In this document: positions 801 through 52,153 of the stretch, in pieces
Layout: each line of letters begins with the position of its first letter
How positions within the stretch are numbered: the stretch's first letter is position 1
Assembly: GCA_951406725.2 (NCBI GenBank)
Contig: OX597831.1
Coordinates: 70,432,001-70,496,000, forward strand
Source of the DNA: Octopus vulgaris
Lineage: Eukaryota
DNA length: 64,000 nucleotides
Reading direction: 5' to 3'
Translations under genes and position numbers: made by a program
The notes under the pieces: generated by a model
Database searches by the model: none
What the model was told of the DNA's origin: nothing
Seen by the model: only the letters and a program-made list of their open reading frames with translations

Positions 801-879
801 TTAATTTTGTTTGCTTGGGTTTTTTCCCTCTCTCCCTCCTTCTCTTGCTATTCCTTCTAGCTAGGTAACTAAATATCTC

Positions 880-1322
880 CTTTATACCAATTTACACCAC
901 CCATATATACACCTGTTTCTGTCTCTCTCACACTCTAACCTTTCATTAACTGACACAAGATCCCCCCCTCCAATTCCCCCTCCCCTCTCAAAATTCCTTG
1001 TCTTGCAAGTTACTTGGGAACATTGCCAGTGCTGGTGCCACATAAAAAGCATCCAGTCCACACTGTAAAGTGGTTGGCATTTGGAAGGGCATCCAGCTGT
1101 GAAAATTATGCCAAACTGACCTCGCCTGTGCTGGTTCCATGTAAAAGGCACTCTGTCCAATCTACAGAGTGATTGGTGTCAGGAAGGGCATCCATCCGTA
1201 AAAACCCTGCCAAAACAGACACAGTAACCTTGGGTAGTTTTCTACTTGGCTGGCTCTTGTCAAACCATTCAACTCATGCCTGCATGGAAGATGGACGTTA
1301 AATGATGATGACGATGGTGATG
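880..1322 (+). mobile_element. RTE-LINE 3'UTR-derived fragment with internal tandem duplication and (GAT)n tail
   Basis: Ends GCATGGAAGATGGACGTTAAATGATGATG, homologous to the 3' end of the RTE at 29277-29480; the unit GTGCTGGTxCCA...GGAAGGGCATCCA occurs twice. Confidence 0.75.
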
Positions 1323-2401
1323 GAAATAAAGTGACCATTGCTTTTATGAAACTGCTATGTCTACATATATGTTTTGGTTTATGAGAGCGACACAGTAAAC
1401 AGTATTATACAAACACGTAGCCAACAGCTTCATTTGAACTGAGAAGATATTGGTTTCATTGATGGAGCTCATATCTGAATAAATCAGCAGATAATGAAGC
1501 ACTATGGAATAGTAATTCAATACTAAAACCTACTCTGATTGAAAAAGTTTCTGAGCAGCCTTTTATATTTATTTTGTTTATAGGCATGAAACATGACAGT
1601 TGTAAGTGAGGAAGAACACATGTTCAAAGACCTTTTTTTTTCCATTTCTCAATTATAAAGGAAGGAATGAACTCATAAAGCTGCGTCGGCAAGTCAAATA
1701 AATTTCCATGCAAAAATCTGCCGTCTGGGTGAAAGGTCGTTTTTAAAATGATCTTAAAAAGACTACTAAGGCTGGAAGTACAATTTAAAGAATTTACACC
1801 AGCCTTATATACAATTTTCCAAATCAGAGTCTAGAAAAAGATTTTGCAGCAGAAACATTTAATTGTTCTGTCCCTCTTCTTTTCAGGGATTTTCTTTTTT
1901 ACTTAAGGGTATTATGTTCCTTTCTCACTCTGCCACTTACCAGCTATACACAGACACTTAAATTGCGTTAGTTATCACTATTTTATCATTAAGTTCTCAT
2001 TATTGGTTCATTGAAAGACCTTTCTATTGTAATACTTTATTTCCACAATAGTCAAAATTATTGCCATATTAAGAACTTTCAATTGTTAAAACATTCTCAT
2101 CTTCTTTTTATTCCTATTTTCATGTTGTTCTGGTTTGGCTTTTATTGGTCACTGTTAAGATTTTATAAGGTTTGGTTTTGTAGTTTTATTACATTTTATT
2201 TGTTCTTCTTGTTTTAGGTCAATCTTTATACTTAACATTTTGAATAGTGTTAAATTTGATATTGTATTCTTGTTCTAAGCATCCTTGTTCTTCTTCTTTT
2301 TATTATTATTATTATATATGCTTTCTTCCACAAATTCTGTTTTCTTTCTATTTATTATAACGCTTTGGAATTCCAGAATATATCTTTCCTGATCAATATT
2401 C

Positions 2402-3270
2402 TATTGGGTTATCCCATAAATAATATGGTTTTCTCAATTGCATGAACTAAAAGTTGGAGGGGGATGGGATAAACTACCTGCATCAACTTGCTATAAAAGC
2501 AGATAGTAATTTTACCTTGTCCTTATTCTTAGTGCAAGTCTTGAAGAATACAGTTCAATGTTAACAGATTTTTTTTTCAAAGCTATAATGGAAGTGACAA
2601 AGGTGCATATTTTGCTTTATGAGTTCAACAAAGGCAACAACACAATGGAAAGTGCAAGGAATATTGATGCAGTATATCAGGATCAGATAATAAGTGTAAG
2701 CCAGTGTCAACAGTGGTTCCAGAAATTCCAAGCCAGAAACTACAACCTAGAAGATGAGCCTTGTCCTGGAAGATCTGTAGAGCTCAACAAGGAACAAACC
2801 CTGGTGGAACAAAATTCCATTGTAACTGTTGAGCAGAGAAGCTTGGATTTGGTCTTTCAACCATTTATTGATGCTAGTGCTAGAAGAAAAATGACCATCT
2901 TTGGTTTCAAGACAAAAGGTGTTCTTCCATCAAGATAATGCTTGGCCACATACAGTGAGGATGACATTCGAAAGGGTGGAGCAGTTTGGATGGGAAATGA
3001 TGCCCCACCCACCCCACCATGTTCACTGGTCATTGCTCCATCTGATTATCATTTATTCTGCAGTCTTCAAAATCATTTGGATAGAAAAAATAAGAATTCT
3101 ATAGACAAGGTCAGAACAGTACTGGAGGAGTATTTCTCATCATGGACAAGTGATTTTTGGGAGAAAGGCCTTGCCAGTCTACCAGATAGATGGAAGAGCA
3201 TTGTAGAAAATGAAAGAAAATATACTTTTGATTAAAAAAGAATTTTGTTTATCTTAATTTTGAAAAATTA
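2402..3270 (+). mobile_element. Tc1/mariner transposon, internally deleted and frameshifted
   Basis: 5' TIR TATTGGGTTATCCCATAAATAAT at 2402; ORFs 2558-3235 give HTH region (QWFQKF...LEDEPCPGR), HQDNAWPH and IAPSDYHLF motifs of a mariner DD34D transposase; first catalytic D region is missing. Confidence 0.9.
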
Positions 3271-4030
3271 AAAATCTGAAATTACGGATGCAAAAGTAAA
3301 AAAAATGTGGTAGACCGAACTGTGCAACATGTCCAAACCTGCTAGAAGGATCAGAATTCCTCTTCAAAGAGGGACAGAAATTCAAGATCAAATCTAATTT
3401 TACTTGTGCCTCTGAAAACATAATTTATGTCATAAAATGCTCTTGCTGCCACCAAGACTACGTGGGATCCACGGGACTATCACTCAGACGTAGATGCACA
3501 CTGCATCGACAACAGATTGCATTCCCAGAATACAGAATGATACCTTTTAGTGAGCACATTGAGAAATGCGCAAAGCAACTACTACCACAATTTTTAATCT
3601 TTCCATTTTACCAATGTGCTATCGGAACACCAACACAAATTAGACTACACAAGAAAACATTCTTCATTGAAAAGTACAAGCCCAGACTTAGCCATTCCAA
3701 CATACTTATACAGAGAAATTCACCCCAAAGGAAAGGCAAAAAATTTTAACCGATTATCTCTCTTACACCGGAAGAAATCACTTATTACCTCCCCTTATCT
3801 AGAACTCTTCTCAACATAAACATAACGATGTAAGAAATTTGAAAAGCTAAATGCGAAACTGGTCATTTCTTCTAAACTATGTCATTGTAAGAAAAAAATT
3901 TATAATATTCTTCAGACATATTAACTCAAATATATATTTTTTAACCTTTTAAAACAAGCCTTCGGTAGTTTTTTCACTTTTTACTATTTTCTATATATTC
4001 AACCACGTGCTTTCACAAACCAACTTTCTC
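3270..4030 (+). mobile_element. Penelope-like element 3' fragment (Neptune-type): Cys-rich linker, GIY-YIG endonuclease and pLTR
   Basis: Frame reads KCGRPNCATC...FTCASENIIYVIKCSCCHQDYVGSTGLSLRRRCTLH...FFIEKYKPRL; followed by a hammerhead motif and ending in (TA)n. Confidence 0.85.
3832..3871 (+). ncRNA. Degenerate minimal type-I hammerhead ribozyme in PLE pLTR
   Basis: AAGAAAT-TTGAAAA-GC-TAAAT-GC-GAAA-CTGG-TC-ATTTCTT: perfect 7-bp stem I, core two substitutions from CTGAAGA. Confidence 0.7.
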
Positions 4031-4189
4031 ATCTATATATATATATATATACATAGTTCATATAACTTAAATTGTTATAAATACAGTAGTCATATTTTAA
4101 TTGTGGGTTTTTGCTTTTCTATTAAGAACTCTACTTGCTTTGAGTACAAAGCAAATTTTTTTGGTTTCCCATTTTCTTTTGCTTTGGAT

Positions 4190-4378
4190 GTAATTTACAT
4201 AAAAAGCACCTAGTGCACTCTGTAAGGTGGTTGGCATTAAGAAGGGCATCCAGCTATAGAAACCTAACCAAAGCAGACAATGGAACCTGGTACATCCCCT
4301 GGCCTTACCAGTTCCCATCCAGCCATCCAACCCATGCCAGCATGGAAAACGGACATTAAATGCTGTTGATGATGATGG
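4190..4378 (+). mobile_element. RTE-tail-sharing short element
   Basis: CCATCCAACCCATGCCAGCATGGAAAACGGACATTAAATG...GATGATG matches the RTE 3' end. Confidence 0.8.
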
Positions 4379-4572
4379 TTATATCTGCAAACCCTGGGGG
4401 TTTTTTGCATGTTTTTAATTATTTTCAAAGCAGCTTTTAGCATTGGGATTGTTTTCTTTACTCAGTTCCCATGTTGTAGTTGACTTCATTTCCAGATCTT
4501 TATATTTGAATAATTTCTCATCACTTATTGGGACTGAAAATTGTTTTCCCTAGTTGTCATTGCGAATAATAT

Positions 4573-6205
4573 TTCAGCTGTTTGTATTAGTTATATATTG
4601 GTTTTTACTGGATATTTTTGTCAATCTTCAGAGGGTATTTTATTATCGATTGTTAACAATTGCATGGAGCCCATAACTCTGTATGTTTGTAGGAAATATA
4701 ACCTTTCTCTATTAGATTTTGCATGGTGAATTTTAAATATAGTCATTATTTGTCTTGCTTTACTCTCATCTTGCTAGTTTATTTCGTGTCTGGCTAAGAA
4801 TATTATAACTATAACTTATCACTGAGGCAGTTAGTGTGTTAATGTTTTTTGTATAGTAAAAGTATGTGCACACTGAATGCATTATGATATTTTAGGTAAA
4901 TAAATCTGTATATGTGTTAATTTTTCATGCACATATTAATTACCTTTGTTAATTGTGGAAAAGGTATCATGTTGGATTTTGGTGAGAAATGCACAAGTGA
5001 GGAGAGCTCAGTGACAGGGTGAATTGTTGTCATGAAGAATCCAATACTTTGCGCTACACAGATCTGGTCACTTTCACCAAATTCTTCCCTTAAATGCTTT
5101 GCAACGTAACAGTAGAACTCTCAATTGATGGTCTGGACCTGGGATTCAAATTCTTGAAACACAATAACACATTTCTGGGGGTGATGCTTATGGCAAGTTC
5201 TCCAGATCACTCATCGTCCTCTAGAGATGTTCTACCACTTTTGAAGCACCCATACCACTCAAAACATTACATACAACCCATTGCCTCACCATCATAACCT
5301 TGCCAAAGCATGTTCACTAAATTTGTAGCAGACTTTCCGAGGTTAACACAAAAGTTCCCGTTGGTTCTTTGTTCCTGTCCATGACAAAATCACAGGCTAC
5401 AGCATACATGTGATGACAAAAGCACAAATTTTACAAATTGCAAAGTAAACACAGCAATTTCACTCAGTACACTGCCTCATGACAGTCACTGCTAGCTCTC
5501 TCAGTGCAGGCAACAGTGTGCTATCATCTATTGGCATAATACAGAGCTAGTATGTGAACTCTTTGATATCACCTTGTATAGCGCATTCAGTGTGCAAATA
5601 CTTTTACCATAGAAAAACCTTTATGCAATAAGATTTTTAAATTCACTCACTACTACTAATTAGAGGAAAGTATTAAGAAGGCTTTGATCCTGTGATGTAA
5701 CGAAAATTACTTCAGTCTCAGTTTTGAGTTCTGCCTTTTTTAGACAGAATTATGATTTTTCTGTTTTGGGAAATTTTTTCCACCTGATTTTGTATGTTTA
5801 TTTTGGCTTATTTTTCTACTGCTTCATAATTTCTTTATTTGTTTTTCTTTACTTCTCTGAATACTCTTTCAACTTTTCTTTTTTTCTTTTCTTTTCTTTT
5901 GTTTACATATTTGATGGCTTCCTTTAAGACAGAAATCAGTGTTTCATTTTGTTGTTGCTTTTTAGCTGTTTGTATTAGTTATATTATTGGTTTTTACTAG
6001 ATATTTTTGTCAACCTTCAAAGGACATTTTATAATAGATTTTTAATTGCATGGAGCCCTTACCTCTGTATGCTTGTAGGAAATATAATCTTTGCATGGTG
6101 AATTTTAAATATAGTCATTATTCGTCTTGTTTTTCTCTCATCTTGCTAGTTTGTTTTGTATCTGGCTAAGAATATTACAACTATAACTTATTATTGAGGC
6201 AGCCA
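4573..6205. repeat. Diverged direct repeat pair (about 4573-4830 and 5963-6205), probably degraded LINE sequence
   Basis: Both copies run AGCTGTTTGTATTAGTTATAT...CTGGCTAAGAATATTAxAACTATAACTTATxxxTGAGGCAG. Confidence 0.8.
4975..5580 (-). mobile_element. Tc1/mariner-type remnant
   Basis: Terminus reads TACAAGGTGATATCAAAGAGTTC on the minus strand next to TA, a typical mariner TIR; interior is degenerate transposase-like sequence. Confidence 0.6.
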
Positions 6206-6611
6206 CTGTATTGATGTATTTGGTTTTTCTTTTCCTTTTTTGCATTTTGCTGTTTAAGTATTCATCTAATGCATCTCTGATATTCTTTTATACCCCTTAC
6301 ACTCACATTGTTCACTGTCTAGGTCATTGATTCCTGAATATTTGTATGTCTGCGTTTGTGGGAATTCTCTTATCTCTGCTTCATTATCTACCATCACATT
6401 AGTTTTCCTAATTAATTTTCCTCTCTATCTCTAATGTTACCATGGTACATTTTTCTAATCCAGTTCCACTTGCAAATCTGCATACTGCCTGCAGCAATTT
6501 CTATCTGTTAATCAGCTATAGCATATGACTTCAAATCGTTCTTACACAAAAGGTAGTTGATTGTTTCCTATAGCACTCATATCTGATTCCAGGTTAAAGT
6601 GGTTAGCATCA

Positions 6612-7000
6612 GGAGGTGCAATGGCCCAGTGGTTAGGGCAGCAGACTCGTGGCCATAGGATCGCGGTTTCGATTCCCAGAGTGGGCGTTGTGAGTGTTTA
6701 TTGAGCGAAAACACCTAAAGCTCCACGAGGCTCCGGCAGGGGATGGTGGTGATCCCTGCTGTACTCTTTCACCACAATTTTCTCTCACTCTTACTTCCTG
6801 TTTCTGTTGTACCTGTATTTCAAAGGGCCGGCCTTGTCACTCTCTGTGTCACGCTGAATGTCCCCGAGAACTACGTTAAGGGTACACGTGTCTGTGGAGT
6901 GCTCAGCCACTTACACATTAATTTCATGAGCAGGCTGTTCCGTTGATTCGGATCAACCGGAACCCTCATCGTCATAACCGACGGAGTGCTTCCATCCATA
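6612..7000 (+). mobile_element. tRNA(Arg)-like-head SINE (OR-type), tail 1
   Basis: A box TGGCCCAGTGG, B box GTTTCGATTCC; flanked by TSD GGTTAGCA(T/C)CAGGAG at 6601 and 7001; near-identical to 55447-55835. Confidence 0.9.
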
Positions 7001-7484
7001 GGTTAGCACCAGGAGTTCCTATCATGTTCCTCTCCTTTCAAGTTTTTTTGCCTATTTCCAGGCCACTTTTGTTGTGATGGCTTCCCCTTGTTTTTTTAAG
7101 ATACTGTACTCATTATTTTGAACAATGTAAACCACGGTGGTTCTGTTGCTGCTCATACACCACTTCAGAAATCTACTTCTCTTGCCGTTAGTATCACATT
7201 GATTTCTATCCTATATTACTTTGTATGTATTTAATCAATTATTTCTATATCATAGCATTATTCAAGTAGATTTTCCCGAAGCTACAAAACGACTTTGACA
7301 TAACACTGATGTAAGAAGATCTAAATGCCCTGCTTAACAGGATAGCAACTTGTTGCAGTGTAAATTCCCATGATTTATGAGTTGAGTACTTTGCATGCTG
7401 TTCAAACTCTATTTACATTGAGCTAATGAAAAATTATCAAATAGGTTGCTTGAGGAGTTCAAAACACTATAAAAAAAAAAATAC

Positions 7485-7600
7485 CTGAAAATGTTCTTTC
7501 TTGCCTCTGTGTCACATGGATTAGGAAACCAGCCAAAATTATCTGATGTAGAAAAACTGCCAATGTTCCTTGTTACATTCTTAGTGCATGGCATACAAAC
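7485..7600 (-). CDS. Candidate internal host exon (unknown protein)
   Basis: ATTTTAACAG acceptor, CAG|GTATTT donor; open frame VCMPCTKNVTRNIGSFSTSDNFGWFPNPCDTEARKNIFR. Confidence 0.3.
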
Positions 7601-7917
7601 CTGTTAAAATCAGTTCATTTTTTTCATCAACATTTCAGTATGCAAAATATGGCTGAAAATTTAAATGAAAATCAAATGTGAAATTTGTCATATCCAGTCA
7701 AAGAAATATATGTGTGTTGCCATAGTAACTATCAGAGACAGATGAAAACTCATTTGAGCAGTGGCCAATAAGTCTGCCAGATGCACTTCCGACTTTTTAG
7801 ACCTTTCCAATGGCACATACTTGCAGCCTGCCATAAAGGTTGCACAAGACGTTGCCATCTTAGATATGGAAAAAAGTTAACAAAATAATCACAAATTTTG
7901 TAAATAGTCCAAAGTAA

Positions 7918-8095
7918 CAAGGTGGCAAAATTCTTAGGATGCCAATGAAAATGCTTAGCGGCATTTTGTCCGTTTTTACATTCTAAGTTCAAATTCTTCT
8001 GTGGTCAACTTCGCTTTTCATCCTTTTGGAGTCAATAAAATAAGTGCAATTTGACCACTGGGAGGGGGGGAGGTGATGTAATCAACTTACCCTTA
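7918..8095 (+). mobile_element. OK-like SINE, diverged
   Basis: TTCTAAGTTCAAATTC...CTTTTCATCCTTTTGGAGTCAATAAAATAAGT, homologous to 41445-41640 and 59625-59800. Confidence 0.7.
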
Positions 8096-8339
8096 TAATC
8101 TATAAGAGATTTTATCTCAGGACAAATACTACAGTAACTGGCCTATCAATCATGTATATACATTAAGTATGATACATAGGCAGCTATTTTAATTAAATAC
8201 TGCCTTGATTGCATATACTGGATATGTATATACATACACATATACATATATACATACATACCTACATAAACACATACACATATATATATATATATATATA
8301 TGTACATACATACATACATATATGTGTGTACATATATAT

Positions 8340-8372
8340 ATGTCTGTGGTAAGAAGCTTGCTTCCCAACCAC

Positions 8373-8409
<37 letters not shown>

Positions 8410-8665
8410 CATTTGCACCAAAAGATATATATATATTTATGTGTGTGTCTGTGTTTGTCTCCCCACCCCCCGCCATCACTTGACAACAGATGCTGGTGAG
8501 TTTATGTCCCTGTAATTTAGCAGTTTGGCAAATGAGACCAATAGAATATATACTAGGCTTACAGCAAATAAATCCTGGGGTCAATTTCTCTGACTGAAGC
8601 CCTTTAAGGCAATGCTTCAGCGTGGCCATAGTCAAACTGACAAACAAGTATAAGAATAAAAAGAA
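8340..8665 (+). mobile_element. CORE-type SINE, internally deleted
   Basis: Head CTGTGGTAAGAAGCTTGCTTCCCAACCACATG, then (TA)n, then the 3' half ending ACAAGTATAAGAATAAAAGA. Confidence 0.75.
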
Positions 8666-9029
8666 TGTACATACTCACTTTTAGAACTTAGACCTTAAGA
8701 AAGACAGTTGAGATCAATATATTTAAACTCAGAATATAAAAATCTGGTAAAAATGCTACAAAGAGTATAGTGCAACAGTGTTACAATTCTGCTATTCCTA
8801 CTCTTTAGAATGAAAGTTAGTTGAGGTTTGAGCATAACAAACAGAATTTGTAATAGGAAGAATAATACAATCACAAATCAATAATCAAGGGACATTTTAA
8901 AATATAAGTAAGCATTGTGACATAAAATTTTTTTCCTGCCTCAAATCACTCTTTATATTTTTAAATACACTATGTTTCATTATAAGATGAAATATTCAGG
9001 GTTGGAAAGCTTGATTAAGTCTAACATGT

Positions 9030-9330
9030 GCCTAAACAACAGCAACAGCCCATATGAACGCCTTTTTGATCTTCATGTGTCTAACACACCTGGACATGCC
9101 TACAAAGTCAGAAAACAACACAGCTCCCATGACTTTCGGAAACATTTTCTCATGCTCAGAGTTGCTGAAGTATGGAACAAACTGCCTGCATCAGTTGTTG
9201 ACTGCCATGACACTGCATCCTTTAAGGCCCTCGTGCTTTCCGAAATCCGCTGAAACTACACCTGATTATATATACACTTTAGATGAGTTGTAGTGCACCT
9301 GAGCACTGTATACAATGTTTTTATTATTTT
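9030..9330 (+). mobile_element. CR1-like LINE 3' fragment
   Basis: GHAYKVRKQ...FRKHFLMLRVAEVWNKLPASVV...SFK, the typical CR1 ORF2 C-terminus, followed by a short 3'UTR and TTA-like tail. Confidence 0.85.
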
Positions 9331-9547
9331 ATGATTAGTTGTTATCATTGAGGAACTTGCATTTTTGTTTAAAATTATGAAGGATAATGGTTTCAAACTT
9401 CTTTGAGGTGACCAAAGCTAAATGATACAAACTTATGAAGCTACTTTCATTTAGTGAGTCCACTTTGCTTCATATACGAGTGATGCATTCCACTGCCTGG
9501 TACTGCCTGTTTACATTTAACTGGAATGGGATAACTAGGTAACTATA

Positions 9548-9773
9548 CTCTCTCTTTTTACTCTCTTTTACTTGTTTCAGTCATTTGACTGCGGCCATGC
9601 TGGAGCACCGCCTTTAATCAAGCAACTCGACCCCGGGACTTATTCTTTTGTAACCCCAGTACTTATTCTATCGGTCTCTTTTGCCGAACCGCTAAGTAAC
9701 GGGGACATAAACACACCAGCATCGGTTGTCAAGCAATGCTAGGGGAACAAACACAGATACACAAATACACACA

Positions 9774-9821
<48 letters not shown>

Positions 9822-9986
9822 TACGACAGGCTTCTTTCAGTTTCCATCTACCAAATCCACTCACAAGGCATTGGTCGGCCCGAGGCTATAGTAGAAGACA
9901 CTTGCCCAAGGTGCCACGCAGTGGGACTGAACCCGGAACCATGTGGTTGGTAAACAAGCTACTTACCACACAGCCACTCCTGCGCC
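9548..9986 (-). mobile_element. Full-length tRNA-derived CORE-type SINE (OR2-like) with internal (TA)n
   Basis: Minus strand GGCGCAGGAGTGGCTGTGTGG...GGTTCAGTCCC, CORE-like GCACCTTGGGCAAGT, (TA)n, tail ACAAGTAAAAGAG repeats. Confidence 0.92.
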
Positions 9987-11087
9987 TATATATTTTAGTA
10001 TCTTTATTAGTTACTTACTCAATATTGTGAGAGGTGGATAGAAACATATTCAGATTGTAGGAATCAAAATTTGAATCAATCCCTGTAGTAACAGTCTTGT
10101 TATTGCTTCATGACAGAGGGTACTAGTTTCTTTTTGATGAGGCTTTTTAAGAACCAACGTTTTAGGAAAAGTAAAGAGATGAGATACATTCATTCCTGTC
10201 TAAAGCAACCAACAAAGCAATTGTAAGTGAAAATAACTTCAGTTTGGAATTGAAACTATCCCACTGCAGTAGTTCACCAAGATCCTATACTGTACAACAG
10301 AATTTTAGAAACTGGAACAGAATATAATAGATATATAATAGAAGTGAGCACACTGTTTTGTATTAGAACACTCTGGAAGTAAATGATTCATTCTGTAAAT
10401 CTGTCATCAACTGATTCTTTCAATTCGATTCTTTCACATAAGACTTCAGAAGATAGTCTGATGCAAAGCATTCAATCAGTCTTGTGTCACGGCCATAAAA
10501 CCAATTTGATCATTGAACCATCAGTGGATAGGTGGTGGTGAAATGTTGGTCCTGACTGTCTGTGTTGTTTGTGCAGTGTGTGAGTAGGTGGGTATAGTGG
10601 TAGTAAACGAAATTTAAACAGAAAGAGACATAGTCAGTTTAGAAAAATAGATAATGGAAGCAATTTCAATGGCTAAGTGTTGCCAGGATGAGGAGAAACG
10701 TGCCAAGTTAGCGTCAAGTTTCAGTAAATAACACCTTACTTAGTGAAGATGTGTGCTATCAGAATTCTATTTTGTGTCTCATTTCTTTCATGCTCCTCTG
10801 CTGCTCCTCTGCTTTACTCTGTTACAAATTAAACAACAATGTAGACTTACTGGAATAGTATGAGTAGGTTTCAAATGTAAATTGACAGCTAACTAGCTGA
10901 TAGATTGATAGATAAAGATTGATTGGTATATGTGTGTATGTATGTATATCACATTTATACGTACACAGGTTAGATAGACAGACAACACTTACACAAACAC
11001 AGACAGATTATATAGAAAGATAAATCTATGGTTAATCAGATATATAGATAATTTAATAAATAATTAGCAATAACAATAAGAAACAGG

Positions 11088-11212
11088 CAATCACATGGTT
11101 TTGGGTTCAGTTCTACTACTTGACACCTTAGACAAGTTTCTTCTCCAACTGTCCTGGGTTGACCAAAGCCTTGTGAGTGGATTTGATAAATAGAAACCGA
11201 GAGAAGCCTGTA

Positions 11213-11266
<54 letters not shown>

Positions 11267-11332
11267 TACTCTTTTACTCTTTTACACTTTTACTTGTTTC
11301 AGTCATTTGACTGTGGCCATGTTGGAGCACCA
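11088..11332. mobile_element. CORE-type SINE fragments (+ head, - tail) joined at (TA)n
   Basis: 11088-11215 matches the SINE head on +; 11268-11332 matches the SINE tail on -. Confidence 0.7.
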
Positions 11333-11752
11333 ATACAGTGTACATTTAAACACATAAGAGGCATCCATCATTAGGACTTCTTGCACACTAGAGAGAACAG
11401 TTAAATTCCAAACCACTATTAGGGATAAAATTTTGAAGGGAATGAAAAATAAAAAAATATTTACCATCTAACTCCTGGACCAATGGTTTCAGACTTTTTT
11501 TAGCAAATAAAATAATTTGCTAGGCGAAGTCTTCTTCAGCAGGTAAACCTTAGATTAAATATATCCTCTTGGAGATTTTAGGTAAAATTATACTAATGTG
11601 TCCATCTGTTTTAATTTAATTAAATTCTATGTCTTTATGCAGCTGAGGATTGCTCTGCATTTAAATTGATGTAATGATTGCATTGTTCAATTAAATGGAG
11701 TTGCATGAAACGATTGCACTGCATTACCTCTGGATATCATTGTTACTCATCT

Positions 11753-11833
<81 letters not shown>

Positions 11834-14933: not shown

Positions 14934-16434
14934 GGCACAGTCATGCCTTTGGATGTCAGAAGTGAAAGTAGAAAAATATGACGTCAGACGTCAACTTCGT
15001 GTATTTACGTCGTCATGTTTAAACTTTCGTTTATTTACGTACCACCACGCTAGGTTTATAAAAGCTTGAAGTTAATTTTTAAAATAAATGTGATACTTAT
15101 TCTGTTTAAACTTTATAAATAAATATATTCTTGCATTATTCATTATTGTTTTTAAAAAAGAAATCACACCAAATCCGCACAAATGAACCCCCATGACCAT
15201 CACCGCGATTACATACACCAATCAGAATGACCACTGACCACCACGTGCGTAATTCAAACTTTGAAATTTATTCAGTTAGAAAATCTTTCAGTGTAATATC
15301 AACACGTGCGAAACAATTTTCAATATGGCTTTTGCATATCCAAGTTTAAGAGGAATTAGTCACCGTGATATTACCATTGCCATGGCTACAACAGCAGATA
15401 GCATTAATTGGCTTAAGAGACATGGCCTTTTGAATACCCAGAAAATATGTATATCGTGTGGAGGTAGCATGAGTGAAATAGCGAAAAAAAGTATATCGGA
15501 TGAAGTAATATGGTCGTGTGGAAGGCCTTGTAGAAAATCCGTGTCAATTAGAAAAGGAACATTTTTAGAAAATAGCAAATTGAAGTGTCAACAAATCATA
15601 GATATATTATATTACTGGGCCAAAGAAGATTTAGCAAAAGGAATAGGACAGGAATGTCATTTAGCAAATGTAGCCGTGACAGATTGGAGGAATTTTTGCC
15701 GCGATATATGTGCAGAATATTATGTTGCACAGAATATTAAGCTGGGAGGACCCAACAGAATCGTAGAGATAGACGAAAGCGCGTTTGTTAGAAGAAAATA
15801 TAATGTTGGCCATCGGGTTAAAACGCAGTGGGTGTTTGGTGCTTTAGAAAGAGATACCAGAAGATGTATTTTAGTGGCAGTGGAAGATCAGACAGCGGAC
15901 ACTCTTTTACAAATTATACGAGAGCGTATATTGCCTGGTACAACCATAATTTCCGACCTTTGGCGTTCGTATAATACACTCAGTCAGCTAGGATACAGAC
16001 ATTTGACCGTGAATCATTCAATAAATTTTGTTGATCCAGTAACATTTGCCACAACCAACCACAGAGAATGTTTATGGAAACACGTAAAGAATCGAAATAG
16101 AAGAGAATGTGGAACAGCCAGAAATTTACTTCAGACCCATCTCATCGAATTCATGTGGCGCTATGAATTTAAGGACGATATATTCGGAAAGTTGATAGAG
16201 AGCAAATTCGACAGCTATATCCATGTGTTTGAGATATAGAGGGTATAAGTATCAAGACAGAATGAGTATCGCATTTATTTTTAAACTTAACTTCAAGTTT
16301 ATATTTTGATAATCTCTCCGTTGAAAATAATATTTTTACATTCTAAATAATTTGCGTTTATTAATTTGATATATTTACACGCGTTTTTGATTTTGCGTTT
16401 TTTAATTTGATAAATTATACGGAAAGAAAGTGCC
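14934..16434 (+). mobile_element. Full-length Merlin (IS1595/ISXO2-like) DNA transposon
   Basis: Perfect 8-bp TSD TGAAATTC (14926-14933, 16435-16442); imperfect TIRs GGCACAGTCATGCC and reverse complement GGCACTTTCTTTCC; single transposase ORF inside. Confidence 0.93.
15325..16239 (+). CDS. Merlin/ISXO2-like DDE transposase, 304 aa
   Basis: N-terminal Zn ribbon (CISC...WSC..PC), VEIDES, WVFGALER, PGTTIISDLWRSY, HLTVNHS.NFVDP, TNHRECLW motifs. Confidence 0.92.
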   Translation: MAFAYPSLRGISHRDITIAMATTADSINWLKRHGLLNTQKICISCGGSMSEIAKKSISDEVIWSCGRPCRKSVSIRKGTFLENSKLKCQQIIDILYYWAKEDLAKGIGQECHLANVAVTDWRNFCRDICAEYYVAQNIKLGGPNRIVEIDESAFVRRKYNVGHRVKTQWVFGALERDTRRCILVAVEDQTADTLLQIIRERILPGTTIISDLWRSYNTLSQLGYRHLTVNHSINFVDPVTFATTNHRECLWKHVKNRNRRECGTARNLLQTHLIEFMWRYEFKDDIFGKLIESKFDSYIHVFEI

Positions 16435-29276: not shown

Positions 29277-32565
<3,289 letters not shown>

Positions 32566-40674: not shown

Positions 40675-40888
40675 ACAACAAGTTGGCAAAATCATTATCA
40701 CACTGGACAAAATGCATCACGCATCTTATCCGTCTTTATATCCTGAGTTTAAATTCTACCATGGTTGATTTCCTCTTTCATCCTTTTAGGGTCAATAAAA
40801 TAAGTACCAGTTGAAATCTGGGGTTGATGTAATTGACTTACCTTTTTCCTCAAAGTTGCTGGCCTTGTGCTAAAATTTGAAACCAGTA
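40675..40888 (+). mobile_element. OK-like SINE, diverged
   Basis: CTTTCATCCTTTTAGGGTCAATAAAATAAGTACCAGTTG...AAAATTTGAAACCA. Confidence 0.75.
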
Positions 40889-41442
40889 TCATGATCCATA
40901 TGCTTGGCTATCCTAGAAACAGCTGTAAGAAACAACCTTTTTATCATAAGTATTCTGCACTATGTTGCATTCATTAGTGACATTAAAAAGAACATATTTT
41001 CATCTTTTTTAACACTTGATGTATACAAAATGTATTCATTTATGCATAATGTGTTGGCAAGAAAAAGTATAGATATATGTCTAAGGAGAACAAATATATA
41101 TATGCTTATATTAATATGTATGCCTTGATTTGTTTTCCATTCAGTTAAATTCACTGCATCACTTATATCCCTATACTTTCTGACTTATTATCTGTCGCTC
41201 ACCTCACCTATTTGTGAACTTACCTGAATCCCTGTCCTTATCCCCACTTACTTGTTTCTCCCTCACAATTCACCTTTACATTCACTCTCTTGTGTCTTGA
41301 GTGCATGCCCTAACATCTCATCTCCATCATCTTCACCTTTCCAACTGGGGTGGCCATAACTGGGGTGGCAAGACACATGTCCATATCCCTCTGTCGCATT
41401 CTTACTTCTCAGCACTTGGCATAAGCCTCTCTATGCAATTCT

Positions 41443-46241: not shown

Positions 46242-46546
46242 CAGGGGTTCTCAACCATTCTTTATCTATGGAACCCCATAGCCATTCAATGCTTATAGAA
46301 ACTTCATTCAAAATTCTTATTTTGCTTTTCATTCATTAACTTGTGTAGGTTGAACTATGTAAAACGTTAGAGAAAGAAACCTAATTGTATCTTGCAATGA
46401 ATAGCAAAACATACAGCTAATGCAAAATTTCTTCAGGGGCTCTTAAAATACTATTGTGGATCTCATATCTACTATTTTGTTGTATGGATCCCAGAAATCT
46501 TACATGGACCCTCAGGGGCGATATGGACCCCAATTGAGAACCACTG
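46242..46546. mobile_element. hAT (Charlie-like) MITE
   Basis: TIRs CAGGGGTTCTCAA / TTGAGAACCACTG; degenerate 8-bp TSD GTTATGCT / ATTATGAT. Confidence 0.85.
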
Positions 46547-46957
46547 ATTATGATAAAGATAAGATTATCAGCAGGAAAGACGATACTAAACTTTGTTTTT
46601 CTCACTTTGCCTCACAACTGGCTAGGTTGGAAACAAAATTGAATGAAATTCTCCACTCTTGAATACTTGGCTCCAGTGATCTGGATGTGTGTGATTTTTG
46701 ACTAAGAAAACATAAACAAAACTTCCTATTAAAGCAATTCCTGTATTTGGTATTTTGAGCAAGAAATTGCAGTCTTCGGGAGTGTAATTTCTCAGAGAAA
46801 TGAGAAATGTATGGTCAATGCAGTTAAGTCGTTTCTACTCAAACCACATTTTGAGTCAGTTTTGATATTTTGATGTCAGAAAAGTTTTCTTTATAACTGC
46901 ATACAGGCTGATCAAATTAGAAATTTTCTTTTTAAATACAGTGTCCTAGTCATGATA

Positions 46958-47360
46958 TCTTTATATATAAAAGTGAGGTTGTGTGCTGTCTGTCTCCTAC
47001 GATTTAGATTCCTAACTACTCCCACATTTTGCGGTGCAGTTTAACCAAAAGCGGGTATCTTATAGTCGTTATTCATATCGAGCCCTTCTAGGTATTAGCG
47101 TGCATCTACAATGAATCTACGATTTAAAAAAAAATTTACCATAATTTTTTTCCATTTTAATGCATATTTTTCCGCTATTATATAAGGGAAGTAACTCTCT
47201 AAAAATGTCTACGATGAGTCAACGAATTTTAAAAAAATTTACCATCATTTTTTTTCCATTTTTAATGCATTTTTTTTCTATTTTATGGCTATAACTCTCT
47301 AAAAATGCTTATATAGTTATTTCCCTTACAAACCCGAGCAACGCCAGGCGATACTGCTAG
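46958..47360 (+). mobile_element. Non-autonomous Helitron with two internal tandem units
   Basis: A|TC...CTAG|T termini, no TSD, subterminal hairpin CCCGAGCAACGCCAGG. Confidence 0.9.
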
Positions 47361-47619
47361 TATGATATATTTAAACCAGAGATCACTTCCCTTTTAGTTG
47401 CTTTGATCTAATCTGGAGGTTCTCAAATGTTTTCAGGTGCTTATTTTCAAACGTTCTAACACACCTGTGCCAGGTAAGGTAGATATGGAGAGGTACCAAA
47501 GGTCTGAAGAGAAGGTTTAGGAGAGATGAGGGTCCCAGACAGAACGAAGTTCAGTCCGGCAGGATGAAACTGGGGTCACCACGTGAGTGTATGTTATAAA
47601 TGGTTCCAATGTACAGAAG

Positions 47620-48795
47620 ACAAAGACAAGTGATGGAACAATCAGGTGTATTAGTTTGATGCTTAGGAAGAATGGAGAAGTCTTTGACATTTTAAAGTTG
47701 CATTAGTCCACAAAAAGGAATGAGATGGAAAACAAGAAAATTGCAGCAAAGTTGCATGATAGTGTTGTGAGACATGGCATGCAGGCCATCATATAACTGG
47801 TTTGGCATTCTGCTTTTATTTTTCTCTTCTGTTTTACGAATTCAATGTGCATTCAATGTGCACAGGCACATTGCATGTTCATACTTCATTTTCTGGTTCC
47901 TACACAAAATTATTTTACGGATCACAATCATCATCATCATCATCATCATCGTTTAGCGTCCGTTTTCCATGCTAGCATGGGTTAATCATCTCACAAATTT
48001 GTGTTCGTGAAGAGTTCTTCATGTTCCGAGGTTAACATGTGTGGAGGTTAACAGCTTAACATGATGGAAGAAAGAGGAAATTGGAAGAAAGAGGCCAAGT
48101 GATGAGGAGATAAGAATGACCTGGCTGAGCTGGGGTGTGCAAGTATGTATGTAAGAATAGAGTTTGTGAGTGTGTGTGTGGGGGGAACAAGCTTAAAATT
48201 ATGCGAGCCTGTGTGTATGTGTGTGTGGGAGTGTGTATAGGAGTGTGTGAGTGTGTGTGTGTGTGTATAAGTAAACCAGTGTGTGCGTTATGTGCTCCAT
48301 ATATTTATGTGTATGTATATGTGGACATGTGTATTTGCGTGGCAGTGTGAGAGATTGTAGGTAGTGTGTGTGTGTGTGCAAATGCTTGAGTGTAGCAATT
48401 AATGTGTGTTTGTGCGAGTAGTGTGTACATGTGTGTGTGTTTGTACATGATGTGTGTGTGTGGCCTTATAGTGTGCACACACAAGCTCACATAATTTTAA
48501 GCCTGCCCACACATATATACACATGCTTGCCCCATTCACATGTACACATTCACACCATTCTTACATACACGCACTTGTGCACTCCAATTCAAACTGGTCA
48601 CTGTTATCTCCCCTTCACTTGGCCTTGTCCAGTCATTTCATCCCAATGCATTGTTTCTCTATCCATTTTTTACCTCTCATCCCTTTCTGTCAAAGAGTGT
48701 AGGCTCAAAATGTCAAAACTTTTCCTTTCTTTTGGAGTATCAAACTAATACACCTGCTTGTTGTTTTCTCGCCTGTCTTCTGTACATTTGAACCA
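47620..48795. mobile_element. Inverted pair of PLE pLTR-like sequences around (TG)n/(CA)n-rich spacer
   Basis: GGTTCCAATGTACAGAAGACA...CAGGTGTATTAGTTTGAT versus ATCAAACTAATACACCTG...TGTCTTCTGTACATTTGAACC; inner arms 48092-48160 and 48555-48625; degenerate hammerhead at about 48683-48720. Confidence 0.75.
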
Positions 48796-48804
48796 TATAT
48801 ATAC

Positions 48805-48875
<71 letters not shown>

Positions 48876-49080
48876 AAATAAGAAAATGGAGAAATACATC
48901 TAAATCAATTATCAACTACCAGATAATACCCAATCACATAATTTATTAAACCACTACATATGAACACTAAGGTCAAACATATTAATATAGAACAAAACAG
49001 TGTACATGAAGGAGTAATATGGTACAATAAGTACAGTATGTATAAGAGAATATAAAAATATAAATATACATATAAACTAC

Positions 49081-49207
49081 ATCTTACAGCTGTTTCGGCC
49101 ATGCAGATATGGGTGTCTCATTTTGCTCATATTAGCCATGTGTGATAGGTCAATATGTAGTTATAAATGAGACACTTACAAAAATATCCCAAGGCCTCTT
49201 CGGAGAT
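49081..49207 (-). ncRNA. Type-I hammerhead with about 100-nt extended stem II (core CCGAAGA)
   Basis: Minus strand ATCT-CCGAAGA-GGCC...GTGTCTCATTT...AAATGAGACAC...GGCC-GAAA-CAGCTG-TA-AGAT. Confidence 0.8.
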
Positions 49208-49232
49208 TATGAAATACAAACTAAATTAACAG

Positions 49233-49610
49233 ATTAAGGTTCAGAAAATGGAGATGTAATATTAATGTAATTTATTAACTGTAAAAATTCAACATGGTCT
49301 CTTACAGCTGTTTCGATTTTGCCCAAAGAATTGAATTCCAGTGATTAAAACATTTTATTGGGCAAAATCTCGTCAGAGGAAAAGAAAATACATACGGTTA
49401 GGTAATTAGATGCTCTAGAAGAATAACATCTAATAATTTAACTGTATGTCTTTTCGATTCCTCTGATGAGATTTTGCCCGATAAAATGTTTTAATCACTA
49501 GAATTTAATTCTTTGGGCAAAAATCAAAACAGATGAAAGAGAACATGTTGAATTTTTGCAGTTAATAAATTATATTAATGCTACATCTCCATTTTCTGAA
49601 TCTTAATTTG
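49233..49610. repeat. Fold-back inverted repeat, about 180-bp arms, about 14-nt loop
   Basis: TTCAGAAAATGGAGATGTA...ATTAGATG / CATCTAAT...TACATCTCCATTTTCTGAA; the right arm carries a mutated hammerhead (CTGATGAG at 49463, GAAA changed to AAAA). Confidence 0.9.
49298..49381 (-). ncRNA. Type-I hammerhead with intact core and long stem II
   Basis: Minus strand TCCT-CTGACGA-GATTTTGCCCA...TGGGCAAAATC-GAAA-CAGCTG-TA-AGAG. Confidence 0.85.
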
Positions 49611-49909
49611 AATATTTATTTGTATGAGGAATACTATTATTCACAAAAACATAATAGGCAACAAACCAGAAATTCATCGGGTATTTTTTATCCCTTAATG
49701 AGGATATTTTACCTCTGTTTAAACTTATATATACATATGTATATATATAAACAATTGCAGCATGGAAGGTGTTTGTAAGCCATTTAAGAAACACACAAAA
49801 GCCGTTCGATTCACTTCAACATTTAAGTTTAATTTGTCAAAATTTTTTTGTCGCTTTAAGACCGCGCCCTGTTCACTGACAAAACTCCGTATGCAAGTAC
49901 ATCTCCGTA

Positions 49910-49912
49910 ATA

Positions 49913-49948
<36 letters not shown>

Positions 49949-50214
49949 TGTATGTATGTATGTATATATGTATTTATGTATGTATGTATGTTTGTATGTA
50001 TGTGCGTGTGTGTATGTATGTATGTATGTATGTATGTATGTATGTATGTATTTATGTATGTATGTATGTTTGTATGTATGTGCGTGTGTGTATGTATGTA
50101 TGTATGTATGTCTCTCTGTGTGTGTGTGTATGTATGTATGTATGTATGTATGTATGTATGTATGTTTGTATGTATGTGCGTGTGTGTATGTATGTATGTA
50201 TGTATGTATGTCTC

Positions 50215-50245
<31 letters not shown>

Positions 50246-50300
50246 ATGTGTGTGTGTGCATATATATGCACACACACATACACACACAAACACACATACG
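49910..50300. repeat. (TATG)n compound microsatellite with higher-order repeat units
   Basis: Recurring TTTGTATGTATGTGCGTGTGTG block three times. Confidence 0.95.
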
Positions 50301-51228
50301 TATTCTTGTATAAATATGTTTTGTGGCATAATGTGTAATGTTTTGCAATAAATCCATGTTGCGAATGCATGGAAGAATTGGCAGAACATGAGAGAAAGGA
50401 AGCATATATATATAATGGTAGAATAAATGTGATTACGGTAAAGAGGTGAAGAAAACGTTTTCTGGGATGGTTGAGGTGGACAGTAGCAAGAATAAGTGAT
50501 AGATTGAAAATGAGAAGAAGCCTGAGGAAGATGGAATGATGACAGAAAGAAGGTGAGCGTAGGGTGTATTGCATAGAAACAGGTCCAGTGCAGTGTTTTA
50601 TACATAGGCCCTGTGATGGGCAAGAGAAGTTGAGTGATGAAGATAGGGATTTAGATGCAGACACTTTCCTTATCATCCATCATAAAAACAAGTGACAAGT
50701 TTTATGGGAGATGATTAATGAGCTTATGAGTATGTTAAACAGTTTCTGTGGTGTGTGTCACACTTTTGTTGGCAGCTATTAACAATGTTATTAACACTTT
50801 CCATAATTATTAGCAACTCGTCATTATTTATCCCTAAATTAATATCAGTTGTATTAAGACTACACTCACTCCCATTCTATCTCCTTTCCTTGTCATAAAT
50901 ACACAACCTCCATCATGTCATTTGTATACACACAGCTCTCTGTGGGGATATTGTCAATTAAACAATTAAATGTTCTGCAGTTCCAAATTTCTCATCGCAA
51001 CCTCTCAATTATTCTTCAAATTTCTGTCACCTGTCCACATCTCAATTATATCCTGTTAATTATATTTGTACCTCTCAACTTTTATACTCTCTGTTTTAAC
51101 GATTGCTTCCATATTAGTCAAAATTATTTCCCACACTCAATTTTCCACTTTCTTGTCACAAAACCAAATGTGTGTGATATTGATATTGAATTATGCGTAA
51201 TATATTGCAAGTAATTTATTATTGCATT

Positions 51229-51628
51229 ACTCTTTTACTCTTTTACTTGTTTCAGTCATTTGACTGCAGCCATGTTGGAGCACCGCCTTTAGTCGAGCAA
51301 ATCGACCCCGGGACTTATTCTTTGTAAGCCCAGTACTTGTTCTATTGGTCTCTTTTGCCGAACCGCTAAGTGACAGGGACGTAAACACACCAGCATCGGT
51401 TGTCAAGCAATGCTAGGGGGACAAACACAGACACACAAACATACACGCACATACATATATATACATATATACGACAGGCTTCTTTCAGTTTCTGTCTACC
51501 AAATCCACTCACAAGGCTTTGGTCGGCGCGGGGCTATAGCAGAAGACACTTGCCCAAGATGCCACGCAGTGGGACTGAACCCGGAACCATGTGGTTGGTT
51601 AGCAAGCTACTTACCACACAGCCACTCC
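51229..51628 (-). mobile_element. CORE-type SINE
   Basis: Near-identical to other young copies, lacking a few 5' bases. Confidence 0.92.
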
Positions 51629-52153
51629 ATTGATGGGGATTTAAAATTAAGATAATCCTCTTTTCATCTGTTGTTTTTGTTCTGAACATAGTAAGATGAA
51701 TACAAAATAGTTTCACAGATAAAATGACTGATTGGATAGAGTATAGAGTCATCAACTAGTGGATTATAATTTGTAATTAACGGAAGACGATTTGTGCTTG
51801 TTTGGGAACAGAACACTTTGTCTCTCATTATTTCAGTTCATGTACTTCGAAGATACAAAACAATATTTTCCGTGAAATTTACCTGGAAGAGAAAACTATC
51901 TTTTTCAGGGTAAAATTTGGCAAAAAAATGACTTTACCATCAATCTTATGGACTCTTGAAATTCACTGTATGTTTAAATGTTTTTACTATTTCTTCCATT
52001 TTATTAAAATCAATGCATCATATTATAATCCTTCATATGTTTACATGATCTTATCATTCATTGAAGGTAGATTTGCCTTATGAACTCCAGGACAATGCCT
52101 CTTTCAGATACACACATACATAAAATTCAGTGTGAGACCTAAAGAAAACCTAA

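What the first reader, a model, noticed from the sequence alone, without database searches (positions are those of the whole stretch)
49081..49610. Tandem hammerheads with identical palindromic stem III and unusually long stem II hairpins, plus a mirrored antisense copy
Seen: two minus-strand hammerheads about 220 nt apart share GAAACAGCTGTAAGA but have unrelated stem II extensions (about 100 nt and about 55 nt, both base-paired). A third, mutated copy lies on the plus strand in a fold-back arm. Known: minimal PLE hammerheads with palindromic stem III cleave as dimers and normally have short stem II. Inference: a heterologous pair could dimerise in cis and excise an RNA of about 220 nt; the long stem II may be a protein-binding or small-RNA-precursor hairpin, and the antisense arm could sequester one ribozyme.
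Basis: partly seen in the sequence, partly recalled or inferred. Interest (0 to 1): 0.72.

Follow-up and report, generated by a model that had tools for sequence, protein, structure and literature searches.

The report
Long-stem hammerheads in two retroelement remnants
These are real self-cutting RNA motifs of the kind carried by Penelope-type jumping genes, unusual for a very long second stem that standard searches miss, but the 'pair' is two different repeat families that happen to abut, and the mirror copy is the usual inverted scar of such an insertion.

Summary
Two minus-strand minimal type I hammerheads (HH1, HH2) have cleavage sites 218 nt apart, the same palindromic stem III and unrelated stem II arms of 55 and 100 nt. 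A decayed mirror copy of HH1 (HH3) lies in a 200-bp inverted repeat. Contigs of four public runs show that HH1 and HH2 belong to separate repeat families, about tenfold apart in summed depth, with almost no cover across their junction. Other head-to-head copies of the HH1 family break at other places, and the family's majority letters restore HH3's core. So this is most likely a 5'-truncated Penelope-like (PLE) insertion with its usual inverted copy, abutting the 3' end of a second family at a (TA)n tract. No RT or endonuclease ORF was tested. A purposeful heterodimer is not supported: cross stem I is only 2-3 bp, and any RNA holding the mirror arm buries HH1 (about 130 kcal/mol). What is new is that the long stem II is a family trait outside the published descriptor (3-7 bp, loop 3-10 nt) and below Rfam. 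One published PLE hammerhead has a similar span. Covariation and cleavage are not shown.

The parts
49299..49381 (-). HH1: minimal type I hammerhead. Core CUGACGA 49376-49370; stem II 49369-49315 (12-bp base, 55-nt span); GAAA from 49314; palindromic stem III strand 49311-49304; predicted cleavage after 49303; weak stem I (2 unbroken pairs)
49081..49207 (-). HH2: minimal type I hammerhead with U4C core CCGAAGA 49203-49197; stem II 49196-49097 (4-bp base, 100-nt span, inner 11-bp helix); same palindrome 49093-49086; predicted cleavage after 49085; 4-bp stem I
49458..49541 (+). HH3: locally decayed copy of the HH1-family hammerhead (core 49463-49469 intact; changes at 49526, 49533, 49536). Majority letters in other copies restore the core
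   Evidence: (table 3)
49214..49412 (-). left arm of a head-to-head inverted repeat: the inverted, 5'-truncated copy of the HH1-family 3' end (pLTR-like)
49427..49625 (+). right arm of the inverted repeat: HH1-family 3' end, 87% identical to the left arm; 14-nt spacer 49413-49426
   Evidence: centre bridged by X1 record 1 with 1 other letter
49626..49726 (+). low-copy extension of the right arm, linked to it in other copies by joints 49613/49616 to 49685, ending at a TA-rich tract; possible optional 3' extension
   Evidence: tables 2 and 5
48876..49229 (-). 3' end of a second, much more abundant repeat family that carries HH2; depth is highest at its 3' end, which abuts (TA)n. It overlaps the left arm by an AT-rich stretch of about 7-15 nt
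   Evidence: tables 2, 7, 8
48795..48873 (.). (TA)n microsatellite, 39.5 copies; likely insertion target
   Evidence: another copy in X14 also runs into (TA)n here (table 7)

Best explanation
The locus is a relic of two retroelement insertions of the Penelope-like type. Family A (HH1/HH3) left a 5'-truncated 3' end of about 200-300 bp plus an inverted copy joined head to head, the usual PLE scar. Family B (HH2) left its last 350 bp with the 3' end on a (TA)n tract and its truncated 5' end joined to the A arm by AT-rich microhomology, either by a second insertion or by a template switch in one event. In the parent elements each hammerhead most likely works as in other PLEs. The palindromic stem III pairs with a second copy of the same family (tandem pLTRs or two RNAs), and slow, probably protein-assisted cleavage trims the element RNA about 200 nt from its 3' end. 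The long stem II is a tolerated or structural extension: stem II only has to close the core, and these minimal ribozymes show no recognisable loop I-II contact. Shown here: the motifs, two depth classes, single-arm copies, other inversion breakpoints, intact family cores, long stem II in other copies. Inferred: PLE identity, order of events, dimer cleavage, protein help. At this locus the ribozymes are probably silent, since read-through RNA folds into a 200-bp hairpin.
For: Depth classes, as rough multiples of single-copy depth in X1/X2/X7: HH2 segment about 400-4,800 (2,900-11,800 at the 3' end); HH1 arms about 20-500; junction bin 49230-49264 about 4/7/3. Sixteen of 32 listed pieces cover the HH3 core and stem II on one arm only, with 19-38 other letters. 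Loose ends at 49220 in X1 and X2 (2 contigs each) and X14 record 12 (41 unmatched letters past 49228) show HH2 copies that go on with other sequence. Same-strand joints 49295/49548, 49329/49520, 49321/49439 and 49371/49418-49423, each at single-copy depth, mark other head-to-head copies with other breakpoints. Majority letters restore G12, the palindrome and U16.1 (shares 0.59-0.75, 0.82-0.96 and 0.89-0.93 in three runs). The families share nothing detectable beyond the 15-mer (tails: 248 and 257 of 300 shuffles as good). Literature: opposite-strand min-HHR pairs 100-700 bp apart (PMC4209133); inverted 5'-truncated copies and (TA)n targets (PMC8557442); head-to-head inverted pLTRs of about 200 bp and microhomology junctions (PMC3846280); PLEs insert next to other PLEs (PMC6765202); protein-assisted cleavage of one PLE hammerhead (PMC11167929).
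Against: No RT or GIY-YIG ORF is linked to either family. No genome is held, and none of the 5 window ORFs scanned hit a GIY-YIG family. Summed contig depth is not a copy number, and only 32 of 15,754 pieces, 15 of 43 joints and 40 of 223 variant rows were shown. The junction bin is not empty (3-7 times single copy), so a few other A-B chimeras are not excluded. X2 record 19 runs 26 letters through the same fold-back centre with 22 other letters, so this centre may recur. Neither family matched the published Naiad, Chlamys or Hydra consensus files by short-word search: of 10 sequence words, 7 had no hit and the 5 hits of the other 3 were in unrelated contexts; line breaks can hide words. HH2 has U4C, which lowers activity in vitro (PMC3088659); whether the family shares it is not shown.
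Confidence: 0.74

Rival explanations
1. One reading: HH1 and HH2 are a selected heterologous pair that dimerises in cis through the shared palindrome and cuts out a 218-nt RNA, switched off by the antisense arm.
For: Same orientation, identical 8-nt palindrome (duplex -13.1 kcal/mol). The nested double-hammerhead is sterically allowed, and cross stem III has P 0.51-0.95 without the arm. 218 nt lies in the size range of animal retrozyme monomers (170-400 nt, PMC7229834).
Against: Two families of unlike abundance; junction nearly uncovered; HH2 copies continue with other sequence. Cross stem I is 2 and 3 bp against 4 bp for HH2 with itself. The full fold costs 11-12 kcal/mol without the arm and 128-131 with it. 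On the minus strand the arm is transcribed before HH1, so read-through RNA always holds it. The excised piece would end in HH2's long arm and is not a repeat monomer (no such tandem).
Confidence: 0.06
2. The two families are non-autonomous hammerhead elements (solo or dispersed retrozyme- or SINE-like derivatives of pLTRs) moved by a PLE in trans. The long stem II is their cis signal or part of a rod-like RNA fold.
For: No ORF seen; very high depth for family B. Non-LTR retrozymes are proposed to derive from pLTRs (bioRxiv 10.64898/2026.07.22.740005, abstract and part 1). The inner helix is kept while the apex changes length in a subfamily (joint 49119 to 49157, depth 2107 in X2; loose end at 49123).
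Against: Retrozymes are tandem repeats with canonical type I hammerheads (PMC7229834). Here there is no tandem and the motifs are minimal. Highest depth at the 3' end and inversions at varied breakpoints fit truncated long elements. Family A contigs carry up to 317 further letters upstream (X1 record 7).
Confidence: 0.15
3. The fold-back is a DNA-level element (MITE or foldback transposon) or an assembly artefact, and the hammerhead-like words are incidental.
For: A 200-bp inverted repeat folds at z -26.8; no Rfam hammerhead match at gathering score or at E up to 10.
Against: X1 record 1 bridges the centre with 1 other letter. Most copies hold one arm only. Family majority letters rebuild the exact catalytic core. 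0 of 30 shuffled windows gave a motif with a 3-bp stem I.
Confidence: 0.05

Closest known systems
Minimal type I hammerheads (min-HHR) in pLTRs of metazoan Penelope-like elements (Cervera and de la Pena 2014, PMC4209133)
   Same: Conserved core, G10.1-C11.1, palindromic stem III needing a dimer, short stem I, AU-rich flanks, solo truncated copies, opposite-strand pairs 100-700 bp apart.
   Different: Stem II span is 55 and 100 nt here, against at most about 23 nt in the 56 rows of their figure S3 and 3-7 bp plus a 3-10 nt loop in their descriptor. No extra nucleotide after A9. U4C in HH2.
Hydra-clade PLE hammerheads (Craig et al. 2021, PMC8557442, file S2)
   Same: (TA)n targets, hammerhead near the 3' end. 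Stem III reads ACAG..CUGU then A or C in 4 of 26 Hydra rows; several rows lack the extra nucleotide after the core.
   Different: Those have a 0-3 nt loop III (one row shows loop III as three ambiguous letters) and a 3-10 nt loop II; here loop III is absent and stem II is long. Clade membership needs the ORF and was not tested.
PLE-X1_sMoe and PLE-X1_sTam hammerheads of spike mosses (PMC8557442, file S2)
   Same: Long stem II region: 9 bp plus a 35-nt loop (span 53) and 4 bp plus a 29-nt loop.
   Different: Plant EN-minus elements in rDNA, flagged as deviating from the canonical structure. No 100-nt span among the 34 rows listed.
Inverted pLTR structures of Adineta vaga Penelope elements (Arkhipova et al. 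2013, PMC3846280)
   Same: Head-to-head inverted repeats of about 200 bp, unequal arms, optional extension on one arm, microhomology junctions, insertion into another Penelope family.
   Different: No ORF and no target-site duplication found here; the one-sided extension is about 100 nt, not 31.
Non-LTR retrozymes (Cervera and de la Pena 2020, PMC7229834)
   Same: Two type I hammerheads 170-400 nt apart in an animal genome.
   Different: Not a tandem of one monomer; hammerheads minimal and from unrelated families.

Membership tests
Type I hammerhead ribozyme (minimal, PLE-type) | Core C3-U4-G5-A6-N7-G8-A9 and G12-A13-A14, A15.1-U16.1, H17 | tested here: met
   HH1 complete. HH2 complete but for U4C, a known natural variant of lower activity. 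HH3 broken locally, intact in majority letters.
Type I hammerhead ribozyme (minimal, PLE-type) | Stem II closing on G10.1-C11.1 | tested here: met
   12 and 4 unbroken pairs starting G-C; P 0.99 for HH1 but 0.2-0.35 for HH2.
Type I hammerhead ribozyme (minimal, PLE-type) | Palindromic stem III allowing a dimer | tested here: met
   8 of 8 Watson-Crick pairs between two copies.
Type I hammerhead ribozyme (minimal, PLE-type) | Stem I of 3 bp or more | tested here: inconclusive
   HH2 4 bp; HH1 2 unbroken pairs, 4 with a bulge. A 2-bp helix I is reported for D. virilis.
Type I hammerhead ribozyme (minimal, PLE-type) | Short stem II as in the published descriptor (3-7 bp, loop 3-10 nt) | tested here: not met
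   Spans 55 and 100 nt against the descriptor. A search convention, not a catalytic requirement, hence a variant.
Type I hammerhead ribozyme (minimal, PLE-type) | Self-cleavage | not testable with these tools
   Needs an in vitro assay; contigs cannot show RNA ends.
Type I hammerhead ribozyme (minimal, PLE-type) | Covariation in the stems across copies | tested here: inconclusive
   Only 40 of 223 variant rows visible, and no copy sequences. Of the 7 shown rows tested inside stem II: 3 unpaired, 2 keep a pair by a one-sided change (family A), 2 break the locus pair (family B), 0 compensatory.
Rfam hammerhead families | Score at the gathering threshold | tested here: not met
   0 matches in the window; no hammerhead family among 19 matches at E up to 10 in 48500-50000.
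Penelope-like retroelement (EN+) | RT plus GIY-YIG ORF | not testable with these tools
   No genome held. No such ORF beside the locus; 0 of 5 window ORFs scanned hit GIY-YIG.
Penelope-like retroelement (EN+) | Hammerhead near the 3' end within a pLTR-sized repeat | tested here: met
   Cleavage sites 210 and 189 nt from the TA tracts; repeat extent.
Penelope-like retroelement (EN+) | 5' truncation with head-to-head inverted copy | tested here: met
   This locus and four other breakpoint types.
Penelope-like retroelement (EN+) | Microsatellite target, (TA)n in Hydra and many Naiad families | tested here: met
   (TA)39 abuts family B; TA-rich tract at 49726; one loose end in X14 shows the same in other copies.
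Non-LTR retrozyme | Tandem repeats of one monomer, each with a canonical type I hammerhead | tested here: not met
   No such tandem in 46500-52000; spacer and tails unrelated.

The most novel reading that the evidence does not exclude
There is an overlooked, abundant class of retroelement hammerheads whose stem II is a 55-100 nt rod kept by selection as a docking site for the element's RT-EN protein, which would switch on cleavage or set where reverse transcription starts. Such motifs would escape every short-loop descriptor, and could explain some of the PLE families reported to have only a widely spaced 'half core' (8 of 54 Naiad rows in PMC8557442). Because unrelated families share one palindromic stem III, their RNAs could also cross-activate in trans.
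Probability: 0.2. Interest if true: 0.68.

Novelty: new variant of a known kind. Interest (0 to 1): 0.38.

Why it matters
If the long stem II is a conserved family trait of active ribozymes, published hammerhead counts in such animal genomes miss whole families with hundreds to thousands of copies, and claims that some PLE clades lack hammerheads need a rerun with a long-stem descriptor. The open question of what PLE hammerheads do, and why they need help, would gain a handle: a large deletable arm with a natural short-apex variant as control. The particular arrangement at this locus matters little; it is most likely insertion debris.

Tried and rejected
Own genome: none held, so no direct copy collection, alignment or covariance model. 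Rfam: 0 at gathering score; 19 matches at E up to 10, all hairpin or microsatellite look-alikes far below their cut-offs. Collection scans for relatives: viral contigs 0; prokaryote genomes 0; metagenomes 55 loci for a 17-mer, of which 2 of 55 had a core-like heptamer before GGCC within 300 nt (spans 14 and 4), and none matched the window over more than 28 nt, so they were treated as chance. Sequencing runs: no RNA holder listed on record; run X14 is only guessed to be RNA, so its contigs are not used as evidence of expression. 'Opposite strand' joints were set aside: 3 of the 4 in the arms fall within 6 nt of the mirror position, as expected for one-arm contigs laid on both arms. Homology between the tails of families A and B looked possible by eye but failed against shuffles. 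The site at 40916 shows no similarity to either family outside the 15-mer (4 tests). The bacterial promoter scan is not meaningful here (4 found, 6.0 expected). Earlier findings: nothing by sequence, place or the long word list; the 8 of 36 shown for 'hammerhead long stem II' concern bacteria and phages. Lunse et al. 2017 (PMC5785218), the paper closest to this topic, is not held; I saw its title only, and it may describe long stem II variants. Literature searches for a prior report: (0 papers for hammerhead + retrotransposon + 'extended stem II'); in the passages I read none described these motifs, but subscription journals and Repbase entries are outside the library.

Full report
Observation. 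A descriptor asking for a CYGANGA core, a stem II of at least 4 bp with a span up to 300 nt, GAAA, a palindrome and UH found 2 motifs in the 64-kb window, both on the minus strand: HH1 (49376-49303, stem II span 55) and HH2 (49203-49085, span 100). Thirty Markov-shuffled windows gave 5 loose hits in all and none with a 3-bp stem I. The shared 15-mer is expected 0.0003 times. HH3 on the plus strand is a mirror of HH1 with three changes in the catalytic right half, inside a head-to-head inverted repeat with 174 of 200 identical columns and a 14-nt spacer. Rfam sees none of them. The window is AT-rich, microsatellite-laden animal-type DNA with RT/endonuclease and transposase relics. Its repeat landscape looks cephalopod-like to me, which is recall and was not tested.

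Two families, not one element. No genome is held, so I laid contigs of 4 of the 24 listed public runs (3 organism labels) on 48880-49900 at 80% likeness. Summed depth is no copy number, but it falls into clear classes. Relative to single-copy depth it is about 400-4,800 over the HH2 segment and highest, about 2,900-11,800, at the end that abuts (TA)39. It is about 20-500 over the two arms and about 3-7 in the bin 49230-49264 between them. Part of that dip arises because one-arm contigs are laid on the other arm, so it overstates the gap for family A, but it still caps A-B chimeras at a few. HH2 copies go on upstream with other sequence: loose ends at 49220 in X1 and X2, and 41 unmatched letters in X14 record 12. 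Sixteen of the 32 pieces shown cover the HH3 core and stem II on a single arm with 19-38 other letters; a 17th is the locus itself, which bridges the palindrome centre with 1 other letter. Outside the 15-mer the two families are not alike beyond shuffles.

The mirror copy. Four same-strand joints (49295/49548, 49329/49520, 49321/49439, 49371/49418-49423), each at single-copy depth, are other head-to-head copies of family A with other breakpoints; one of them lacks the ribozyme altogether. That is the pattern of an integration by-product. Inverted 5'-truncated copies next to the pLTR are described as common for PLEs (PMC8557442, passages; PMC3846280, passages), and opposite-strand min-HHR pairs 100-700 bp apart were already noted in Schistosoma (PMC4209133). 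The family's majority letters at 49526, 49533 and 49536 restore G12, the palindrome and U16.1 in three runs, so HH3 decayed after insertion. Against this reading, X2 record 19 runs 26 letters across the same centre, so this centre may occur more than once, and only 15 of 43 joints were shown.

The long stem II. It is a family trait. The one-arm contigs carry the 55-nt arm, and X2 record 17 and X14 record 12 cover all of HH2 without gaps. A subfamily in X2 skips 37 nt (49120-49156) at the apex and keeps the inner helix, and the majority letter at 49123 differs from the locus in all four runs. Length change confined to the apex is mild support for a maintained hairpin and speaks against a fixed small-RNA precursor; that 37-nt stretch alone folds no better than shuffles (z -0.2). 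Covariation could not be tested properly. Among the 40 of 223 variant rows shown, I checked 16 that fall in or next to the ribozymes; 7 lie in stem II, and none is compensatory. Published metazoan min-HHRs have spans up to about 23 nt (56 rows), and the descriptor allows 3-7 bp and a loop of 3-10. The 26 Hydra-clade rows have loops of 3-10 nt, but two spike-moss PLEs have loops of 35 and 29 nt. So a 55-nt span has a precedent and a 100-nt span has none in what I read. Craig et al. also list 8 Naiad families with core halves 35-50 nt apart that fit no descriptor.

Could the pair work in cis? In a double hammerhead each core takes its stem I partner from the other ribozyme. Here that gives 2 and 3 bp, against 4 bp for HH2 with itself. 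Without the mirror arm the cross stem III is well populated (P 0.51-0.95) and the full fold costs 11-12 kcal/mol in a nearest-neighbour model that ignores core stabilisation, so some cleavage in vitro is possible. With the arm, which is transcribed first on this strand, HH1 is buried and the fold costs 128-131 kcal/mol. HH2 also has U4C, said to lower activity considerably in vitro while allowing viroid infectivity (PMC3088659). An RNA starting in the 14-nt spacer would be needed; nothing here points to one.

Mechanism, best estimate. Shown: motifs, family structure, intact family-A core, recurring inversions, a (TA)n end. Inferred from PLE biology: these are pLTR hammerheads that cleave slowly as same-family dimers about 200 nt from the element's 3' end, probably with protein help as reported for one anole PLE (PMC11167929, passages); this locus is a truncated inverted insertion of family A joined by microhomology to a truncated copy of family B. 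PLEs tend to insert in or beside other PLEs (PMC6765202, passages). Not shown: an RT or GIY-YIG ORF, transcription, cleavage. I therefore call them PLE-type hammerheads and the repeats probable, not proven, PLEs; the stem III sequence and (TA)n target resemble the Hydra clade.

What I read. PMC4209133: main text parts 1-2 of 4 and the whole supplementary PDF. PMC8557442: passages, supplement parts 1-2 of 59 and three word searches. PMC3088659: passages and section 8. Passages only: PMC11167929, PMC7229834, PMC6765202, PMC10085705, PMC13282606, PMC3846280, PMC6962438. Lunse et al. 2017: title only; it could lower the novelty.

Verdict. It is a new variant of a known kind: the arrangement is ordinary retroelement debris, and the long stem II as a trait of two abundant families is the part worth following. 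Interest 0.38.

Noticed in passing
window 40916-40930 (+): A third exact copy of the 15-mer (0.0003 expected), with no CYGANGA core closing a stem II within 300 nt upstream and no similarity to either family in its flanks. It may be the right half of a third, older hammerhead cut off by a repeat inserted just upstream (about 40750-40885; SINE-like by recall).
   Followed up: partly
window 48881-48892 and 49242-49253 / 49586-49597: Both families carry the same 12-nt word (TCTCCATTTTCT in element sense) shortly before a TTTGTAT near their ends, though the tails are otherwise unalignable. It could be a shared 3' recognition signal or chance in AT-rich DNA.
   Followed up: no
window 49755-49894: An extremely abundant short repeat, summed depth 10^5-10^6 in all four runs, far above the hammerhead families; it lies between a TA tract and a (TATG)85 array.
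   Followed up: no
window 29650-32373 (-): Near-complete non-LTR retrotransposon in three frames: endonuclease, RT and a weak PHD-like insert (Pfam); RTE-like by recall.
   Followed up: partly
window 15280-16239 (+): Open 319-aa frame with an ISXO2/IS1595-like DDE transposase domain (E 9e-18); Merlin-type by recall.
   Followed up: partly
window 47105-47307: Two diverged direct copies of a unit of about 103 nt.
   Followed up: no
L028:~600-660 (+): A metagenome contig with a core-like UUGAUGA, a 14-nt GGCC stem II and the same palindromic stem III, i.e. a possible short-stem relative; stem I is poor.
   Followed up: no
PMC8557442 supplement, 3' ends of Naiad consensus sequences shown: In at least three snippets (Naiad_Bfor, Naiad_Obim and one unnamed) a GAAAC word comes before a CUGAUGA word within about 80 nt, the order of a permuted (type II-like) hammerhead. 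Seen by eye only; it may bear on the claim that Naiads lack hammerheads.
   Followed up: no
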